From a virus (Duplodnaviria; Heunggongvirae; Uroviricota; Caudoviricetes), in the IMG/VR virus record IMGVR_UViG_2684622670_000017: a stretch of DNA of 30,940 nt, one strand, 5' to 3'. Positions 3,217 through 10,985 of this stretch are shown here, one piece after another. The first letter of the stretch is position 1. The number at the start of each line of letters is the position of its first letter. A program made the position numbers and the translations under genes. Below the pieces are notes generated by a model. The model was not told the DNA's origin, did no database searches, and was given only the letters and a program-made list of their open reading frames with translations.

Positions 3217-3279
3217 GTAATTAACCAAAGTTTTTAACGCACTTAATCGTGCGGGGCTTCTTTTTGCCTGGAGAAAGTC

Positions 3280-4030: not shown

Positions 4031-4302
4031 GTATTCGTATTGAAATTGGCGAACGTTATGTCGTTACCAGTGACAGCTTTCAGTTTATTCTCCACGAGAA
4101 AAAGAGAGCTGAAAGCGGTAAAAACGCCGGTCAGGAATGGCTGGCGGTGGTTGGTTATTACCCGAAATTAAGCCAGCTCGTTTCCGGCCTGATGCATCAC
4201 GATATTCTGACCGGAAGCGCAAAGTCTTTTGCTGATTTAAACGCGCAGGTTGAGCAACTCAGCAAGCGTTGTTCAGAGGCTTTTGGCTCATATGGCCGTT
4301 AA
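4027..4302 (+). CDS. Hypothetical early protein (P2 orf83-like by position)
   Basis: 91-aa ORF immediately upstream of and overlapping gene A. Confidence 0.5.
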   Translation: MSIRIEIGERYVVTSDSFQFILHEKKRAESGKNAGQEWLAVVGYYPKLSQLVSGLMHHDILTGSAKSFADLNAQVEQLSKRCSEAFGSYGR

Positions 4303-6601
4303 AGCCTCCGGGCGTTTTGTCCCTCCGTCAGCATTTGCTGCAGGCACCGGTAAGACGTTTACCGGTGCTTATGCATGGAACGCGCCACGCGAGGCTGTCG
4401 GGCGCGAAAGACCCCTTACACGTGACGAGATGCGTCAGGTGCAAGGTGTTTTATCCACGATTAACCGCCTGCCTTACTTTTTGCGCTCGCTGTTTACTTC
4501 ACGCTATGACTACATCCGGCGCAATAAAAGCCCGGTGCACGGGTTTTATTTCCTCACATCCACTTTTCAGCGTCGTTTATGGCCGCGCATTGAGCGCGTG
4601 AATCAGCGCCATGAAATGAACACCGACGCGTCGTTGCTGTTTCTGACAGAGCGTGACCACTATGCGCGTCTGCCGGGGATGAATGACAAGGAGCTGAAAA
4701 AGTTTGCCGCCCGTATCTCATCGCAGCTTTTCATGATGTATGGGGAACTCTGCGATGCCTGGGTGGATGCGCATGGCGAAAAAGAATCGCTGTTTACGGA
4801 TGAGGCGCAGGCGCATCTGTATGGTCATGTTGCTGGCGCTGCACGTGCTTTCAATATTTCCCCGCTTTACTGGAAAAAATACCGTAAAGGACAGATGACC
4901 ACGAGGCAGGCATATTCTGCCATTGCCCGTCTGTTTAACGATGAGTGGTGGACTCATCAGCTTAAAGGCCAGCGTATGCGCTGGCATGAGGCGTTATTGA
5001 TAGCTGTCGGGGAGGTCAATAAAGACCGTTCTCCTTATGCCAGTAAACATGCCATTCGTGATGTGCGTGCGCGCCGTCAGGCAAATCTGGAGTTTCTTAA
5101 ATCGTGTGACCTTGAAAACAGGGAAACCGGCGAACGCATCGACCTTATCAGTAAGGTGATGGGCAGTATTTCTAATCCTGAAATTCGCCGGATGGAGCTG
5201 ATGAACACCATTGCCGGTATTGAGCGTTACGCCGCCGCAGAGGGTGATGTGGGGATGTTTATCACGCTGACCGCGCCGTCAAAGTATCACCCGACACGTC
5301 AGGTCGGAAAAGGCGAAAGTAAAACCGTCCAGCTTAATCACGGCTGGAATGATGAGGCATTTAATCCGAAGGATGCGCAGCGTTATCTCTGCCGTATCTG
5401 GAGCCTGATGCGCACGGCATTCAAGGATAATGATTTACAGGTCTACGGTTTGCGAGTCGTCGAGCCACACCACGACGGAACGCCGCACTGGCATATGATG
5501 CTTTTTTGTAATCCACGCCAGCGTAACCAGATTATCGAAATCATGCGTCGCTACGCGCTCAAAGAGGATGGCGACGAAAGAGGAGCTGCGCGAAACCGTT
5601 TTCAGGCAAAACACCTTAACCGGGGCGGTGCTGCGGGATATATCGCGAAATACATTTCAAAAAACATCGACGGCTATGCACTGGATGGTCAGCTCGATAA
5701 CGATACCGGCAGGCAGCTGAAAGACACCGCCGCGGCTGTTACCGCATGGGCGTCAACGTGGCGCATCCCGCAATTTAAAACGGTTGGCCTGCCGACAATG
5801 GGGGCTTACCGTGAACTACGCAAATTGCCTCGCGGCGTCAGTATTGCTGATGAGTTTGACGAACGCGTCGAGGCTGCACGCGCTGCCGCAGACAGTGGTG
5901 ATTTTGCGTTGTATATCAGCGCGCAGGGTGGGGCAAATGTTCCGCGCGATTGTCAGACTGTCAGGGTTGCCCGTAGTCCGTCGGATGAAGTTAACGAGTA
6001 CGAGGAAGAAGTCGAGAGAGTGGTCGGCATTTACGCGCCGCATCTCGGCGCGCGTCATATTCATATCACCAGAACGACGGACTGGCGCATTGTTCCGAAA
6101 GTGCCGGTCGTTGAGCCTTTGACTTTAAAAAGCGGCATCGCCGCGCCTCGGAGTCCTGTCAATAACTGTGGAAAGCTCACCAGTGGTGATACTTCGTTAC
6201 CGGCTCCCACACCTTCTGAACACGCCGCAGCAGTGCTTAATCTGGTTGATGACGGTGTTATCGAATGGAATGACCCGGAGGTCGTGAGGGCGCTCAGGGG
6301 CGCATTAAAACACGACCTGATAACACCAAACCGTCAGCAAAGAAACGGAAGCCCGTTAAAACCGCATGAAATAGCACCATCGGCCAGACTGACCAGGTCG
6401 GAACGAATGCAAATTACCCGTATCCGCGTTGACCTTGCTCAGAACGGTATCAGGCCGCAGCGATGGGAGCTTGAGGCGCTGGCGCGTGGCGCGATCGTAA
6501 ATTATGACGGGAAACAATTTACGTATCCGGTTGCTGATGAGTGGCCGGGATTTTTACAAACAGAAATTGTTTTTGGGATTAATAAGTTATCTCTAAGCTA
6601 A
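4292..6601 (+). CDS. A: Rolling-circle replication initiator endonuclease (P2 gpA)
   Basis: Large ORF with HUH-type metal-binding motif (TPHWHMMLF) and paired active-site tyrosines (GYIAKYISKN). Start set at the internal MAVKASGRF Met in frame with ORF 4250..6601; size matches P2 A (about 760 aa). Confidence 0.9.
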   Translation: MAVKASGRFVPPSAFAAGTGKTFTGAYAWNAPREAVGRERPLTRDEMRQVQGVLSTINRLPYFLRSLFTSRYDYIRRNKSPVHGFYFLTSTFQRRLWPRIERVNQRHEMNTDASLLFLTERDHYARLPGMNDKELKKFAARISSQLFMMYGELCDAWVDAHGEKESLFTDEAQAHLYGHVAGAARAFNISPLYWKKYRKGQMTTRQAYSAIARLFNDEWWTHQLKGQRMRWHEALLIAVGEVNKDRSPYASKHAIRDVRARRQANLEFLKSCDLENRETGERIDLISKVMGSISNPEIRRMELMNTIAGIERYAAAEGDVGMFITLTAPSKYHPTRQVGKGESKTVQLNHGWNDEAFNPKDAQRYLCRIWSLMRTAFKDNDLQVYGLRVVEPHHDGTPHWHMMLFCNPRQRNQIIEIMRRYALKEDGDERGAARNRFQAKHLNRGGAAGYIAKYISKNIDGYALDGQLDNDTGRQLKDTAAAVTAWASTWRIPQFKTVGLPTMGAYRELRKLPRGVSIADEFDERVEAARAAADSGDFALYISAQGGANVPRDCQTVRVARSPSDEVNEYEEEVERVVGIYAPHLGARHIHITRTTDWRIVPKVPVVEPLTLKSGIAAPRSPVNNCGKLTSGDTSLPAPTPSEHAAAVLNLVDDGVIEWNDPEVVRALRGALKHDLITPNRQQRNGSPLKPHEIAPSARLTRSERMQITRIRVDLAQNGIRPQRWELEALARGAIVNYDGKQFTYPVADEWPGFLQTEIVFGINKLSLS

Positions 6602-6723
6602 GACGCTCAAAGCAAGAGATTATTTTACTGTACGTAGCCATCTGGAATTGTGGCTGTGTTAAAACGCTCGAGATTTTTTGGATATCCAGTTATACTCCGC
6701 TTAGAAATCATTCGGAGACTAAG
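6602..6723 (+). promoter_or_regulatory. Putative promoter / 5' leader of the methyltransferase gene
   Basis: AT-rich intergenic region with a TATACT -10-like hexamer and an inverted repeat CTCCG..(13 nt)..CGGAG overlapping the GGAG ribosome-binding site before the 6724 ATG. Confidence 0.3.
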
Positions 6724-7770
6724 ATGGCGGTAAAAGTTGTTGATCTTTTTTGCGGTGCTGGCGGTTTAACGCACGGCTTACATTTGGCCGGATTGGACGT
6801 TGTCGCAGGCATTGATTTAGAAGGTGAGTGTCGTGTTGCATACGAAAGCAATAATGATGCACTTTTTATTGAAAAAGATATATCTCTGGTGACAAAAGAT
6901 GAAATCGAAAATCTTTTTGAAGGGGCAAGTGTTAAAGTATTGGCTGGATGTGCACCTTGTCAGCCATTTTCTAAATATACTCAGGGAAAAGATAAAAAAA
7001 ATGATAAAAAGTGGCCGTTATTATATGAGTTTGAACGTTTAATAAAAGACACGAAACCAGAAATAGTTACAATGGAAAACGTTCCTGATGTGACAAAACA
7101 TTCTGTCTATGATGATTTTTATAATACCTTAATAGCATTGGGTTATTATGTTTGGGCAAATAAGATTGAATGTGTAGATTTTGAGGTTCCGCAAAACAGA
7201 GTGAGGCATGTATTACTCGCATCTAAATTTGCGCCGATTTCTCTGATGAAACCACAAACATCGGTAAAGCTGACAGTTAGGGATTGCATTGGTAATTTAC
7301 CTTCGATTGAAGCGGGACAAGCAGATCCAAAAGACCCTCTCCATAAGGCGAGTAGATTGAGTGAAATTAATCTCAAACGTATTCTACATTCAAAACCGGG
7401 GGGGACATGGAGGGATTGGCCTGCTGAATTAATCGCTTCATGTCATGCCAAGAAAAGTGGGCAGGGATATGCCAGTGTTTATGGTCGTATGTCTTGGGAT
7501 AAACCGAGTCCAACGATAACTACACTTTGTTATGGTTTTGGTAATGGACGTTTTGGTCATCCCGAGCAGCATCGTGCAATCTCACTTAGGGAAGCAGCAT
7601 TACTTCAAACGTTTCCTGTTACATATTCATTTACCCAACCGGGCGAGCCGATCAAAATGAAAAATGTCGGGCGTATGATAGGTAATGCTGTTCCTGTAAA
7701 CTTAGGTAAAGCGATTGGTCTTTCAATAGTACATCATTTGAAAGAGTTTCACCCCGCCGCTCTTAAATAA
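6724..7770 (+). CDS. DNA (cytosine-5)-methyltransferase
   Basis: 348 aa with the canonical C5-MTase motifs: I DLFCGAGG (AdoMet binding), IV GCAPCQPFS (catalytic Cys; nt about 6955..6963), VI TMENVPD, VIII QNRVRHVLL, and C-terminal IGNAVPV. AT-rich codon usage unlike the phage backbone. Confidence 0.92.
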   Translation: MAVKVVDLFCGAGGLTHGLHLAGLDVVAGIDLEGECRVAYESNNDALFIEKDISLVTKDEIENLFEGASVKVLAGCAPCQPFSKYTQGKDKKNDKKWPLLYEFERLIKDTKPEIVTMENVPDVTKHSVYDDFYNTLIALGYYVWANKIECVDFEVPQNRVRHVLLASKFAPISLMKPQTSVKLTVRDCIGNLPSIEAGQADPKDPLHKASRLSEINLKRILHSKPGGTWRDWPAELIASCHAKKSGQGYASVYGRMSWDKPSPTITTLCYGFGNGRFGHPEQHRAISLREAALLQTFPVTYSFTQPGEPIKMKNVGRMIGNAVPVNLGKAIGLSIVHHLKEFHPAALK

Positions 7771-8468
7771 GCCTGAGTATCAAGATAAGTTTGTATATTT
7801 TCAAGGATGCAGTTGAGATAATGAAAAACTTCATCCTTCATTTCTGTTAGTGTATCAATAGATGTATCTCTGCCTTTGTTTCTAAATGATTCAGAACCAT
7901 GAGCAAGGTCGTTTCTGGCCTTTTTTATTGGAAGTAAATTGCAACCATTTCGCGTTATTTCTGAATCTGTATCTGCTGAGAAGCCATATTTTTCAGCGAC
8001 TTCTCTAATTTTTCTAGCATCAACATTTCCAGAAAATAACGGATTTTTATTTGATTGGATAAGTTTTTTGTGAGCGTTTAGCCACTCTTTAAATATAACT
8101 TTTGCAATGTTCCCTTGTGAGAAATCTATTTTCCCATTTGGTGATTGTAAACTATGAAATGCTACTCTTGTAAGGTTTTCATTTACAGTGTCTGCACATA
8201 ATGATTCATTAGACATTAAAACATTATGAATGTCTTCTATTGCATTGGAAATGGTTGCTTCAATGAGATTGTACAATATAATAAATGCATTAGCCTTTAA
8301 AATATGAGTCATATCAATATCAATGGGTTGTTGTATAGGCGCATCGCTTGTATTATCTTTATAGACTAGAGATGGTTTTTTGTTTATTAGTAACTGAATG
8401 AATGAGAAGTATTCATTAATATCTTGCATTCTTTCTTGGAAAAGAATTTTACTTGTCATCTCCTCCAT
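7749..8468 (-). CDS. HEPN-like protein with Rx4HG motif (putative nuclease effector; resembles the MAE_28990/Swt1-like HEPN group)
   Basis: 239 aa. Conserved-looking ARNDLAHGSESF near the C-terminus (R185..H190, nt about 7899..7917) fits the HEPN Rx4-6H signature. Second gene of a minus-strand operon, 10 nt after the DUF262 gene; AT-rich. Confidence 0.6.
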   Translation of the reverse strand: MEEMTSKILFQERMQDINEYFSFIQLLINKKPSLVYKDNTSDAPIQQPIDIDMTHILKANAFIILYNLIEATISNAIEDIHNVLMSNESLCADTVNENLTRVAFHSLQSPNGKIDFSQGNIAKVIFKEWLNAHKKLIQSNKNPLFSGNVDARKIREVAEKYGFSADTDSEITRNGCNLLPIKKARNDLAHGSESFRNKGRDTSIDTLTEMKDEVFHYLNCILENIQTYLDTQAYLRAAG

Positions 8469-8478
8469 TTACTTGGCC

Positions 8479-9624
8479 TCACTCCATATTTTCATCTTCA
8501 TCTTCATCTTCGTCGACAATATTTTCTGGAATGTCTTTCCCAAGCAACTTGTTTTTTACATATTCAATGCGTGCTTTAACTTTGGGTTTAGAGTTGCTGG
8601 CATCTGAACGTGTGTGCGTGATAAACTCTTTCGAGTTGATCCAGTCATCAATATTTTTAGGAACTAAATTGGGTTCTTCCTCCAGTGCTAATGTTGCACC
8701 GACGGCAAGAGCTTCGAAACGAATCCTAGGAACAGTGGTGGCGTTTTTCACCTTTCTGAAACCATTTGGGAAATGTGTATTAATGAATTGGCACATTTTA
8801 TGAAATTTTTCCGCCAGCATAGCTGCGTTTTCATCTGTATATTCGGCATTTTTACGTTTTAAATAGGTTGTAAGAAATTCATCAACGCTTTTTCTGAAAT
8901 CAAGATATTCTTCAGTGTAGGCAAAGTAGCGTAGTGCCAATTCTGGATATTCAGAGCGACGTTTTCTTGCATCTCCCAAAGGACAGATGCTATGAAATAG
9001 AGGATCTTCGGAAATTTCATTGATAAATGCAAGGAATGGCCCATCATGGCTACCTTGCCGTTGTTCCATTGTTGTTAGTTTTTTTCCGCCAGTATTCAGA
9101 CGGTCAAAAATTTCCCTTCTTGTCTCTTCGTCACAATGTTCTGTAAGTTCAATCATTCGAATAGTTTTTCTATCAAAACGTAGGCGACGGGGAGTACTGA
9201 AATCAGAATATTTAAAACCATTGGCTGTGACTAATTTCTGCAGGCCTTCAAGAGTTAGTTTGTTATTGGTAAATTGGTGTAGGGTTCTTATTCGTTGGCT
9301 ACCGTCAACAATTTCAAGTCTACCTTCATTTTCACCTGAACCAATATCGGCAACGAATATGTAAGGTATAGGAAGATTTAAAAGCAGAGATTCAATGAAA
9401 CGGGATTTTTGCTTGTTGTTCCAGATAAACTCCCTTTGGTAGTCAGGTATAAAAAGCTCTGCCTCATCTTCTTCAAGACCATTCTGAAATTTGTCCACAA
9501 TAACACTTATCGGGAACTCACGTATTTCATGGTCAGTGATTTTTTGCATTTCAACTATGCTTTGATCTAAAAGCTCCTTTTCTTCTTTAGTTTTTGGGGT
9601 ATGTTCTGCTTTTTTTCTCGCCAT
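8479..9624 (-). CDS. DUF262 (ParB/Srx-like, GmrS-type) domain protein
   Basis: 381 aa. N-terminal DUF262 signatures FIPDYQREFIW and EIVDGSQRIRTL (DGQQR-type). No HNH/DUF1524 His-Me motif seen in the C-terminal half. Ends in an acidic tail DEDEDEDENME. Confidence 0.8.
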   Translation of the reverse strand: MARKKAEHTPKTKEEKELLDQSIVEMQKITDHEIREFPISVIVDKFQNGLEEDEAELFIPDYQREFIWNNKQKSRFIESLLLNLPIPYIFVADIGSGENEGRLEIVDGSQRIRTLHQFTNNKLTLEGLQKLVTANGFKYSDFSTPRRLRFDRKTIRMIELTEHCDEETRREIFDRLNTGGKKLTTMEQRQGSHDGPFLAFINEISEDPLFHSICPLGDARKRRSEYPELALRYFAYTEEYLDFRKSVDEFLTTYLKRKNAEYTDENAAMLAEKFHKMCQFINTHFPNGFRKVKNATTVPRIRFEALAVGATLALEEEPNLVPKNIDDWINSKEFITHTRSDASNSKPKVKARIEYVKNKLLGKDIPENIVDEDEDEDENME

Positions 9625-9763
9625 GAGCTTATTATCCTACTATGCGTGTGATTGCATTAAATTGCATGTTAAACAAAAGCATAATCTATATCAGTCAATC
9701 AGCCAGTGGCAAGGTGTTGTGATTACAATGCAACTGCATTAGAACCGACTCATGAAGCGGGCG

Positions 9764-9950: not shown

Positions 9951-10985
9951 TCAGCCGTTGTCAGTGTCCAGTGAGTAGTTTTTAAAGCGGATGACCTCCT
10001 GACCGAGCCAGCCGTTTATCTCGCGGATCCTGTCCTGTAGCGGGATAAGCTCATTGCGGACAAAGACCTTTGCCACTTTCTCAATATCACCCAGCGACCC
10101 GACGTTCTCCGGCTTGCCGCCCATCAACTGAAAGGGGATGCGGTGCGCGTCCAGCAGGTCAGCGGCGCTGGCTTTTTTGATATTAAAAAAATCGTCCTTC
10201 GTTGCCACTTCACTGAGCGGGATAATTTTAATGCCGTCGGCTTTCCCCTGTGGGGCATAGAGAAACAGGTTTTTAAAGTTGTTGCGGCCTTTCGACTTGA
10301 CCATGTTTTCGCGGAGCATTTCGATATCGTTGCGATCCTGCACGGCATCAGTGACGTACATGATGTATCCGGCATGTGCGCCATTTTCGTAATACTTGCG
10401 GCGGAACAGCGTGGCCGACTCATTCAGCCAGGCAGAGTTAAGGGCGCTGAGATATTCCGGCAGGCCGTACAGCTCCTGATTAATATCCGGCTCCAGCAGG
10501 TGAAACACGGAGCCGGGCGCGAAGGCTGTCGGCTCGTTGAAGGACGGCACCCACCAGTAAACATCCTCCTCCACGCCACGACGGGTATATTTGGCCGGTG
10601 AGGTTTCCAGTCTGATGACCTTACCGGTGGTGCTGTAACGCTTTTCCAGAAACGCATTACCGAACACCAGAAAATCCAGCACAAAGCGGCTGAAATCCTG
10701 CTGGGAAAGCCACGGGTGCGGGATAAACGTTGAAGCCAGAATATTACGTTTGACGTAAATCGGTGAGCTGTGATGCACGGCAGCACGCAGACTTTTTGCC
10801 AGACCGGTAAAGCTGACCGGTGGCTCATACCATCTGCCGTTACTGATGCACTCGACGTAATCCAGAATGTCACGGCGGTCGAGTACCGGCACCGGCTCAC
10901 CAAAGGTGAATGCCTCCATTTTCGGGGCGCTGGCGGTCATTTTTTTTGCCGCAGGTTGCGGTGTTTTCCCTTTTTTCTTGCTCAT
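9951..10985 (-). CDS. Q: Portal protein (P2 gpQ)
   Basis: 344 aa (same as P2 Q), adjacent to cos and the large terminase, minus strand as in P2. Confidence 0.92.
   Translation of the reverse strand: MSKKKGKTPQPAAKKMTASAPKMEAFTFGEPVPVLDRRDILDYVECISNGRWYEPPVSFTGLAKSLRAAVHHSSPIYVKRNILASTFIPHPWLSQQDFSRFVLDFLVFGNAFLEKRYSTTGKVIRLETSPAKYTRRGVEEDVYWWVPSFNEPTAFAPGSVFHLLEPDINQELYGLPEYLSALNSAWLNESATLFRRKYYENGAHAGYIMYVTDAVQDRNDIEMLRENMVKSKGRNNFKNLFLYAPQGKADGIKIIPLSEVATKDDFFNIKKASAADLLDAHRIPFQLMGGKPENVGSLGDIEKVAKVFVRNELIPLQDRIREINGWLGQEVIRFKNYSLDTDNG

What the first reader, a model, noticed from the sequence alone, without database searches (positions are those of the whole stretch)
6724..7770. C5-cytosine methyltransferase in convergent, 3'-overlapping arrangement with the effector operon: cognate modification enzyme or phage anti-restriction methylase?
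All catalytic motifs are present, so it is probably active. Its last 22 nt (7749..7770) overlap the 3' end of the HEPN-like gene on the opposite strand, a tight convergent layout seen in some restriction-modification pairs and one that permits antisense interference. If the DUF262/HEPN pair is modification-dependent, a linked methylase would be paradoxical, so one of two things holds: either the methylase marks self DNA for protection, or it is an independent cargo that protects the phage from host type II restriction.
Basis: partly seen in the sequence, partly recalled or inferred. Interest (0 to 1): 0.55.

Follow-up and report, generated by a model that had tools for sequence, protein, structure and literature searches.

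The report
Methylase partner of a DUF262–HEPN cassette
The cytosine methylase is real, looks active, and is the long-standing built-in partner of the neighbouring DUF262 sensor and HEPN RNase genes, not a separate phage accessory; the three genes form a catalogued but untested defence-type cassette in the P2 prophage cargo hotspot.

Summary
A 348-aa C5-cytosine methyltransferase (6724-7770, +) has every catalytic motif. Its last 22 nt overlap the 3' end of a MAE_28990-family HEPN gene (7749-8468, -), which follows a DUF262/ParB-like gene (8479-9624, -). The three genes are low-GC cargo between gpA and gpQ of a P2-like prophage, the known old/tin defence hotspot.

An orthologous methylase (51-89% identity) lies tail-to-tail with the HEPN gene in cyanobacteria, Bacteroidota, and Gamma- and Betaproteobacteria. 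These copies sit in prophages, Tn7-like elements, islands and plain chromosome. Every methylase homologue I sampled (59-82% identity) sits next to DUF262+HEPN. Methylase and DUF262 distances co-vary (r = 0.92), and the methylase's target-recognition region is conserved family-wide. It is therefore a cognate component, not independent anti-restriction cargo.

The most likely mechanism, which is inferred, is a restriction-modification-like self-mark read by the DUF262 sensor, which controls the RNase. The dependence is not absolute: one cyanobacterial clade lost the methylase but kept an intact pair, and two frameshifted alleles exist.

The triad was noted in 2013 and listed among P2 hotspot cargos in 2022. 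I found no functional test of it in the papers searched. Interest is moderate.

The parts
6724..7770 (+). C5-cytosine DNA methyltransferase, 348 aa, all catalytic motifs present (catalytic Cys79)
   Evidence: Pfam PF00145 E = 1.8e-54; motif positions; motifs invariant in 31 orthologues and TRD region conserved; nearest solved structures are the DNMT1 catalytic domain, M.HaeIII and M.HhaI
7749..7770 (.). 22-nt overlap of the 3' ends of the convergent methylase and HEPN genes
   Evidence: Sequence read directly; convergent abutment conserved in 28 of 29 loci, overlap length variable
7749..8468 (-). MAE_28990-family HEPN protein, 239 aa, predicted RNase; Rx4H motif R185-N-D-L-A-H190
8479..9624 (-). 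DUF262 / ParB-like NTPase with NsnA-like C-terminal helical domain, 381 aa; motifs QREFIW 63-68, DGSQR 107-111, FDRLN 173-177; no DUF1524/HNH domain
   Evidence: Pfam PF03235 E = 4.7e-28; PADLOC NsnA E = 4.9e-55 over the full length, PD-T4-2_A E = 9.2e-35; motifs; Foldseek top hits are all ParB/Srx fold but weak
7398..7404 (+). G7 homopolymer inside the methylase ORF (codons P225-G226-G227); site of the only two known frameshift alleles (G8, G6)
6666..6697 (+). Conserved promoter-like block upstream of the methylase (GCTCGAGATTTT-N9-CAGTTATACTC; TCGAGA-17-TATACT)
   Evidence: Consensus scan; conserved in 6 enterobacterial cassettes while the flanks diverge; located. Function not shown
9643..9669 (-). 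Conserved direct repeat ATGCAA-N-ATGCAA(+GCA) between a promoter-like site (9712-9683) and the DUF262 start; candidate operator
   Evidence: Alignment A3; located; promoter-like site; absent from cyanobacterial cassettes. Function not shown
4250..6601 (+). P2 gpA replication endonuclease, left border of the hotspot
   Evidence: Pfam PF05840 E = 7e-124
9951..10985 (-). P2 gpQ portal protein, right border of the hotspot; the linear phage genome end (cos) lies near 9763
   Evidence: Pfam PF04860; the phage P24B2 record ends at query position 3264, which is window ~9763

Best explanation
The methylase is the dedicated modification component of a three-gene, horizontally mobile cassette carried as cargo in the P2 gpA-gpQ hotspot. 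The other two genes encode an NsnA-like ParB/DUF262 NTPase, taken to be the DNA sensor, and a MAE_28990 HEPN RNase, taken to be the effector. Shown here: (1) all three genes are intact with their active-site motifs; (2) the methylase lineage and the DUF262-HEPN pair are reciprocally linked across phyla in a conserved tail-to-tail layout, the methylase is ancestral to the family, and it co-diversifies with DUF262; (3) its target-recognition region is as conserved as its catalytic core, so one specificity probably serves the whole family. Inferred: the enzyme puts 5-methylcytosine on a fixed short motif in host and prophage DNA as a self-mark. The DUF262 protein reads the methylation state of that motif. 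DNA that lacks the mark, such as an incoming phage, lets the NTPase license the HEPN RNase, which stops translation and aborts the infection. This would be a restriction-modification logic whose 'restriction' arm is an RNase. The convergent, terminator-less junction may let each transcript run antisense into the other gene and balance their expression, but that is not shown.
For: Linkage seen from the HEPN side: of 79 genome loci, 77 have DUF262 directly upstream. In 29 an orthologous methylase (51-89% identity) lies next to HEPN; in 28 of these it is convergent just downstream, and in L029 it lies upstream on the same strand. The 29 include all 5 non-cyanobacterial loci. Linkage from the methylase side: 5 of 5 homologues picked from the methylase search at 59-73% identity sit convergent to HEPN_MAE_28990+GmrSD_N, in Shigella/E. 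coli, Proteus, P. aeruginosa, Acinetobacter and Shewanella. Linkage from the DUF262 side: a Rhodocyclaceae locus and a Pseudomonas locus both carry all three genes. The cassette is not tied to phages: in V. cholerae it is chromosomal, and elsewhere it sits in Tn7-like elements, integrase islands and a defence island. In E. coli complete genomes all 16 cassettes of three sequence types carry all three genes, with no partial cassettes. Pairwise distances of methylase and DUF262 correlate at r = 0.92 over all triads and 0.70 within cyanobacteria. Methylase-positive loci are basal and widespread on the DUF262+HEPN tree. The TRD region shows 55% identity between E. coli and cyanobacteria, against 47% for the N-terminal core. 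A Vsr gene beside the methylase in two relatives argues for real DNA 5mC. The best PADLOC matches are methylases of self-marking systems, DrmMII of DISARM and DruM of Druantia. [quoted passage not shown] Li et al. raise the idea that ParB-DUF262 domains linked to lone methylases may target non-modified genomes (PMC12065111).
Against: No experiment bears on this cassette. All characterised DUF262 proteins either attack modified DNA (GmrSD, BrxU) or are stimulated by the self-mark (SspE); none is known to sense the absence of a mark (PMC10952713). One large cyanobacterial clade, plus three scattered loci, lost the methylase yet keep DUF262 and HEPN motifs intact (24-25 of 25 and 23 of 25). The pair is therefore not obligatorily lethal or useless without a linked methylase. 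PD-T4-2, a distant DUF262+HEPN pair, protects E. coli K-12 from T4 when cloned without any methylase. Two alleles of this very cassette have a frameshifted methylase with intact effector genes, although sequencing error is not excluded. The target motif is unknown.
Confidence: 0.55

Rival explanations
1. The DUF262-HEPN pair is a self-sufficient sensor-effector like PD-T4-2 or type IV enzymes, for example sensing hypermodified phage DNA or another infection cue. The methylase is a conserved accessory whose job is not to prevent autoimmunity. One option is a PrrC-like guard arrangement, in which HEPN stays silent while the methylase/DUF262 complex is intact and fires when a phage inhibits the methylase or depletes SAM. 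Another option is that the methylase adds a separate layer of protection.
For: Methylase-less lineages keep intact motifs. PD-T4-2 works without a methylase. Frameshifted methylase alleles exist with intact effectors. The guard model was proposed for HEPN genes embedded in R-M loci (PMC3710099). Known DUF262 enzymes are modification-dependent.
Against: It does not by itself explain why the methylase co-varies most tightly with the DNA-binding DUF262 protein, or why its TRD is frozen across phyla. After methylase loss DUF262 diverges faster (0.33 against 0.24 mean distance), and in about 22 Microcoleus species it is truncated, which suggests the sensor's constraint depended on the methylase.
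Confidence: 0.25
2. The methylase is independent phage cargo (a moron) that protects P2 DNA from host type II restriction, and it merely happens to lie next to the DUF262-HEPN operon.
For: Phages often carry orphan Dcm-like methylases. The gene has its own promoter-like site and lies on the opposite strand. Rousset Table S5 also lists P2 hotspot arrangements with a DNA_methylase gene and no DUF262 or HEPN.
Against: The same methylase lineage is linked to DUF262+HEPN in non-phage chromosomal sites of V. cholerae and cyanobacteria, and in Tn7-like and island contexts. All five homologues sampled from the methylase search are linked. Orientation and abutment are conserved.
Confidence: 0.05
3. The methylase is mainly an epigenetic or regulatory switch. 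The G7 tract makes it phase-variable, so lysogen subpopulations differ in methylation, and through the conserved promoter/operator blocks they differ in cassette or host gene expression or in the arming of the effector.
For: The only two disrupted alleles are +1 and -1 changes in the G7 tract. The tract uses two rare GGG codons in a 40% GC gene and is shared by the Citrobacter-type cassette, while other orthologues interrupt it. Conserved CTCGAG-containing and ATGCAA-repeat blocks lie upstream of the two transcription units.
Against: Seven G is short for efficient slippage. Every other copy examined is G7: six sequences checked directly, in-frame partial proteins, and the exact intact protein seen on 410 contigs. 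Homopolymer sequencing error explains both variants equally well. Most orthologues have no tract.
Confidence: 0.08

Closest known systems
MAE_28990 HEPN - ParB - DNA methylase operon (Anantharaman et al. [quoted passage not shown] 2022, Table S5
   Same: The same three protein families in the same neighbourhood, and in Rousset's table the same P2 gpA-gpQ locus. This window is an instance of that catalogued arrangement.
   Different: Both sources only list the association. Rousset's table of tested systems contains no DUF262 entry. Orientation, the conserved 3' abutment, the ancestry of the methylase, its loss in one clade, TRD conservation and co-variation with DUF262 were worked out here.
PD-T4-2 (Vassallo et al. 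2022), a validated two-gene anti-T4 system from E. coli ECOR65
   Same: A DUF262 protein followed by a small HEPN protein whose best HHpred matches are the same two Pfam families, HEPN_RiboL-PSP and HEPN_MAE_28990. The window's DUF262 hits the PADLOC PD-T4-2_A model at E = 9.2e-35.
   Different: PD-T4-2 was cloned as about 1.8 kb with no methylase. Its two ORFs together span only about 1.5 kb, so its HEPN is much shorter. The window's HEPN hits no PADLOC model at E up to 1. The DUF262 protein is closer to the NsnA model (185 bits) than to PD-T4-2_A (118 bits).
Type II restriction-modification systems with convergent R and M genes
   Same: A solitary-subunit C5 methylase tightly linked tail-to-tail to a potentially toxic partner. 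The unit is mobile as a whole and sits next to Vsr in some relatives. Antisense and convergent transcription is a known control layer in R-M systems (PMC3141266; PMC12707154).
   Different: No restriction endonuclease domain is present. The partner is a ParB-like NTPase plus an RNase, and the partner survives long-term loss of the methylase in one clade.
SspABCD-SspE and Dnd systems (DUF262 proteins working with a self DNA modification)
   Same: A DUF262/ParB-like NTPase genetically coupled to an enzyme that marks self DNA. In SspE the self-mark is what the DUF262 domain reads.
   Different: The mark here is 5mC, not phosphorothioate. There is no DUF1524 nickase domain, and the effector is a separate HEPN protein.
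Menshen (NsnABC)
   Same: The DUF262 protein matches the NsnA model over its full length (E = 4.9e-55), meaning ParB-DUF262 plus the helical ParBDB-type domain described by Li et al. 2025. Some Menshen loci also carry lone methylases.
   Different: There is no NsnB ABC-ATPase and no NsnC inPIN-nuclease. The only other genes between gpA and gpQ are HEPN and the methylase.

Membership tests
C5-cytosine DNA methyltransferase (PF00145) | Motifs I (FxGxG), IV (PCQ, catalytic Cys), VI (ENV), VIII (QxRxR), IX and X (GNAVP) in canonical order | tested here: met
C5-cytosine DNA methyltransferase (PF00145) | Methylates DNA at a defined motif | not testable with these tools
   Indirect support only: a Vsr gene lies beside the orthologue in P. 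aeruginosa and Rhodocyclaceae. The specificity cannot be read from PDB relatives
HEPN superfamily, MAE_28990 family | Rx4-6H motif in an all-helical HEPN fold | tested here: met
HEPN superfamily, MAE_28990 family | Operon context with a ParB-like gene and a DNA methylase (Anantharaman 2013) | tested here: met
GmrSD / BrxU / SspE type IV-like enzymes | DUF262 NTPase domain with QRxxxW, DGxQR and FxxxN motifs | tested here: met
GmrSD / BrxU / SspE type IV-like enzymes | DUF1524 His-Me/HNH nuclease domain, fused or adjacent | tested here: not met
   Pfam finds only GmrSD_N in the 381-aa protein. The hits to SspE and HEC-05/06 models cover only the N-terminal ~30-65 residues of the domain. Not a member.
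PD-T4-2 | Two-gene operon: a DUF262 protein followed by a HEPN protein | tested here: met
   Architecture; PD-T4-2_A model E = 9.2e-35
PD-T4-2 | The HEPN partner matches the PD-T4-2_B model; the system has no methylase | tested here: not met
   No PADLOC hit for the HEPN protein even at E up to 1. A methylase is present and conserved. It is a distant relative, not a member.
Menshen (NsnABC) | NsnA-like ParB-DUF262 + ParBDB protein | tested here: met
   PADLOC NsnA E = 4.9e-55, model positions 41-377 of 385
Menshen (NsnABC) | NsnB ABC-ATPase and NsnC inPIN-nuclease immediately downstream | tested here: not met
   Only HEPN and the methylase lie between gpA and gpQ
Type II restriction-modification | A methylase with a cognate DNA endonuclease | tested here: not met
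   No REase domain. The PADLOC 'REase_II' hit is marginal (E = 8.7e-07) and lies on the DUF262 region. It works like an R-M system at most by analogy.
DISARM / Druantia type II | DrmMII/DruM-type methylase together with DrmA/B/C or DruE/H helicase genes | tested here: not met
   The methylase hits DrmMII (E = 1.9e-89) and DruM (E = 5e-67), but no other DISARM or Druantia gene is in the 3.3-kb cargo
P2 hotspot #1 cargo (old/tin locus) | Variable, compositionally foreign genes between gpA and gpQ, next to cos | tested here: met
   (GC 0.39 against 0.54); literature

The most novel reading that the evidence does not exclude
This would be an epigenetic immune system in which the methylation state of DNA (5mC at one fixed motif) is read by a ParB-like NTPase and passed to a HEPN RNase. 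In other words, it would be a restriction-modification system whose restriction arm is abortive RNA cleavage rather than DNA cutting. A slippage-prone G7 tract in the methylase could act as an on/off switch that arms or disarms the cassette in subpopulations.
Probability: 0.3. Interest if true: 0.75.

Novelty: new variant of a known kind. Interest (0 to 1): 0.5.

Why it matters
DUF262/ParB-like sensors appear in many anti-phage systems (GmrSD, BrxU, SspE, Dazbog, Menshen, PD-T4-2), but how the nuclease-less ones tell self from non-self is unknown. This cassette couples such a sensor to a dedicated, phylum-spanning methylase with one conserved specificity. Nature has also supplied the control: sister lineages that lost the methylase, including a clean in-situ deletion between two Okeania species. 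That makes the question testable with ordinary genetics in E. coli using a 3.3-kb insert. If the methylase is the self-mark, the cassette would add an RNase-armed branch to restriction-modification. It would also explain how P2 prophages exclude competitors while sparing their own methylated DNA.

Tried and rejected
1. Reading the methylase's target from solved relatives failed. The best PDB hits are the DNMT1 catalytic domain, M.HaeIII and M.HhaI at E of 1e-21 to 1e-11, which is too distant.

2. I looked for a different methylase class next to HEPN in the methylase-negative loci. The neighbours are housekeeping genes by my reading of their sequences: ClpB, aconitase, acetyl-CoA synthetase, GlyS and an ABC1 kinase.

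3. I asked whether the cassette is a named PADLOC system. Only the DUF262 protein (NsnA, PD-T4-2_A) and the methylase hit models; the HEPN protein hits none.

4. An RNA or tRNA methylase reading (Dnmt2-like antitoxin against the RNase) was rejected. Similarity to DNMT2 is weak (E about 1e-8) compared with DNA methylases, and Vsr, which on background knowledge repairs the T:G mismatches left by 5mC deamination in DNA, accompanies two orthologues.

5. V. cholerae VchM identity was considered from memory. Source names gave no support, and I dropped it.

6. Population evidence for G-tract switching was sought. IMG/VR and metagenome scans found only G7 copies, and most metagenome pattern hits were unrelated. 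Truncated cluster members are contig-end fragments, not frameshifts.

8. Repeat and promoter/terminator scans of the cargo gave counts no better than shuffled sequence. Only cross-species conservation singled out two upstream blocks.

Full report
WHERE WE ARE. The window is a P2-like (Peduovirus) prophage. The stretch 6500-9763 is 99.8% identical to the right end of phage P24B2. gpA (4250-6601, PF05840, E = 7e-124) and the portal gpQ (9951-10985) flank the region of interest. The 3.3 kb between them has 39% GC, against 54% for the rest of the window. This gpA-gpQ interval next to cos is the documented P2 'old/tin' hotspot of anti-phage cargo (Rousset 2022, PMC9122126; Vassallo 2022, PMC9519451).

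THE OBSERVATION. It is correct. ORF 6724-7770 (+) encodes a 348-aa C5-cytosine methyltransferase (PF00145, E = 1.8e-54). Motifs I, IV (PCQ, Cys79), VI, VIII, IX and X are all present. On the other strand lie a DUF262/GmrSD_N protein (8479-9624, E = 4.7e-28) and, 10 nt downstream, a MAE_28990-family HEPN protein (7749-8468, E = 6.5e-18). The methylase stop (7768-7770) and the HEPN stop (7749-7751) give a 22-nt overlap of the 3' ends.

IS THE METHYLASE A PARTNER OR A NEIGHBOUR? I tested linkage from all three genes.

(a) Starting from HEPN. A profile scan of one genome per species returned 79 loci. DUF262 lies directly upstream of HEPN in 77 of them. The other two are cut by a contig end.
- In 29 loci an orthologue of this methylase (51-89% identity) lies next to HEPN: in 28 it is convergent just downstream, and in L029 it lies upstream on the same strand.
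- These 29 include every non-cyanobacterial locus: Kluyvera, Buttiauxella, Thalassotalea, Cytophagales and Parabeggiatoa.
- Fifteen loci have exactly a 4-nt stop overlap. The window-type 22/25 nt occurs in the closest relatives, and 89 nt in Cytophagales.

(b) Starting from the methylase. All five homologues I picked from its own search (59-73% identity) sit convergent to HEPN_MAE_28990+GmrSD_N. They are:
- a very common Shigella/E. coli P2 variant;
- a Proteus island;
- a P. aeruginosa island that also carries Vsr;
- an Acinetobacter prophage, where the cassette lies beside the CI repressor;
- a Shewanella defence island.

(c) Starting from DUF262. A Rhodocyclaceae locus and a Pseudomonas Tn7-like cargo locus again carry all three genes. 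Each also has a MORC-like HATPase_c_3 gene, and the Rhodocyclaceae locus has Vsr.

In V. cholerae the cassette lies between ordinary chromosomal genes. In E. coli complete genomes three sequence types of the cassette occur in 3, 4 and 9 genomes, and always with all three genes. The 'independent phage anti-restriction cargo' reading is therefore not tenable.

EVOLUTIONARY SIGNAL. In 30 triads, methylase and DUF262 pairwise distances correlate at r = 0.92 (0.70 within cyanobacteria). That is tighter than either correlates with HEPN. The region between motifs VIII and IX, which sets sequence specificity in this enzyme class (established knowledge of C5 methyltransferases), is as conserved as the catalytic core: 55% identity between E. 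coli and cyanobacteria, against 47% for the N-terminal core. This suggests one target motif for the whole family and fits a sensor tuned to that motif.

On a neighbour-joining tree of DUF262+HEPN, methylase-positive cassettes are basal and widespread. Methylase-negative ones form one derived cyanobacterial clade plus three singletons, one of which (L081) retains a methylase remnant. Okeania L069 (methylase present) and L053 (absent) share the same flanking genes, which shows an in-situ deletion.

LIMITS OF THE DEPENDENCE. The methylase-less pairs sit alone between genes that I read as housekeeping from their sequences (ClpB, aconitase, AcsA, GlyS). They still keep their active-site motifs: 24-25 of 25 for DUF262 and 23 of 25 for HEPN. 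So the pair can persist without a linked methylase.

DUF262 is, however, more divergent in the methylase-less loci (mean distance 0.33 against 0.24). In about 22 Microcoleus species it is cut to about 177 aa with a decayed DGxQR motif. This fits the idea that losing the methylase changed or relaxed the constraint on the sensor.

PD-T4-2 is the experimentally validated relative. It pairs a DUF262 protein with a short HEPN protein whose best matches are the same two Pfam families. It was cloned without a methylase and blocks T4.

Within the window's own cassette type, two records carry a frameshifted methylase with intact DUF262 and HEPN: phage P24B2 (G8) and E. coli 2015C-4136CT1 (G6, annotated 'frameshifted'). 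Both changes lie in the G7 tract at 7398-7404. Every other copy I examined is G7, and the exact intact protein is seen on 410 contigs. I cannot separate slippage from homopolymer sequencing error.

MECHANISM (INFERRED). The best-supported model is restriction-modification-like. The methylase marks a fixed motif on resident DNA. The ParB-like NTPase, with its helical DNA-binding domain, reads that motif's state. Unmarked incoming DNA licenses the HEPN RNase, giving abortive infection.

Support comes from the linkage and co-variation data above, from Vsr beside two orthologues (real DNA 5mC), from the methylase's best defence-database matches being DISARM and Druantia self-marking methylases, and from the SspE precedent of a DUF262 domain reading a self-mark.

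The main rival is that the pair senses something else and the methylase is an accessory or a guarded component, as in the PrrC-type model proposed by Anantharaman et al.. I cannot exclude it, and I give it about 0.25.

The junction has no terminator between the genes. The only terminator-like hairpin on the + strand lies at 7905-7922, inside HEPN. Mutual antisense read-through is therefore plausible, as in some R-M systems, but it has not been shown.

REGULATORY LEADS. Two short blocks are conserved among six enterobacterial cassettes while their surroundings diverge. One is GCTCGAGATTTT-N9-CAGTTATACTC at 6666-6697, upstream of the methylase, which coincides with a promoter-like site. The other is an ATGCAA direct repeat at 9643-9669, between a promoter-like site and the DUF262 start. 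Their function is unknown.

COMPARISON WITH WHAT IS KNOWN. The triad is already in the literature as an association. Anantharaman et al. [quoted passage not shown] Rousset et al. [quoted passage not shown] It is absent from their table of tested systems, and no PADLOC model matches its HEPN protein. Full-text searches found no functional study.

It fails the membership tests for GmrSD (no DUF1524), Menshen (no NsnB or NsnC), type II R-M (no endonuclease) and PD-T4-2 proper (different HEPN, plus a methylase). It is best described as a methylase-equipped variant of the DUF262+HEPN kind.

VERDICT. The self-marking mechanism is likely but unproven, and clearly not obligatory in all lineages. Novelty: a new variant of a known kind, already catalogued but not characterised. 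Interest: 0.5.

Noticed in passing
window 7398-7404: A G7 homopolymer lies inside the methylase ORF (CCG GGG GGG, P225-G226-G227). The only two disrupted alleles found are G8 in phage P24B2 (NC_049387) and G6 in E. coli 2015C-4136CT1 (CP027550), both with intact DUF262 and HEPN. The Citrobacter-type cassette also has G7, while other orthologues interrupt the run. It could be a slippage switch or a homopolymer sequencing error.
   Followed up: partly
window 6666-6697: The block GCTCGAGATTTT-N9-CAGTTATACTC (contains a CTCGAG palindrome; promoter-like TCGAGA-17-TATACT) and the leader AATCGGAGACTAA-ATG are conserved upstream of the methylase in six enterobacterial cassettes whose surrounding sequence has diverged.
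   Followed up: partly
window 9643-9669 (minus strand): The direct repeat ATGCAA-N-ATGCAA followed by GCA, between a promoter-like site (9712-9683) and the DUF262 start, is conserved in enterobacterial cassettes but not in cyanobacterial ones. It is a candidate operator, and DndB-type DUF262 proteins are known autoregulators.
   Followed up: partly
L124:6028-6438; L128:2485-2856; L130:5978-7927; L128:533-2446: Relatives carry extra genes. Vsr (very-short-patch repair) lies beside the methylase in P. aeruginosa and Rhodocyclaceae. A ~640-aa HATPase_c_3 (MORC-like GHKL ATPase) lies next to or inside the cassette in Rhodocyclaceae and Pseudomonas, both at Tn7-like elements.
   Followed up: no
L007, L008, L015, L016, L021, L025-L027, L030-L036, L040, L046, L049, L065, L074 (about 7300-7870 in most): About 22 Microcoleus species share, at one chromosomal site beside clpB, a methylase-less copy in which DUF262 is cut to about 177 aa (DGxQR intact in only 7), while most still keep a full-length HEPN ORF (cut in at least two, L008 and L015). 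This looks like slow decay after methylase loss.
   Followed up: partly
L053 vs L069 (Okeania spp.): The two loci have the same flanking genes, but L069 has the methylase (282 nt from HEPN) and L053 lacks it. This is a clean natural deletion pair for testing whether the pair depends on the methylase.
   Followed up: no
L012:8632-8720: In a Cytophagales genome the convergent methylase and HEPN ORFs overlap by 89 nt, the longest overlap seen.
   Followed up: no
window 7905-7922 (+): A terminator-like hairpin followed by a T-run lies inside the HEPN coding region, 135 nt past the methylase stop. If functional, methylase transcripts would run about 150 nt antisense into HEPN.
   Followed up: no
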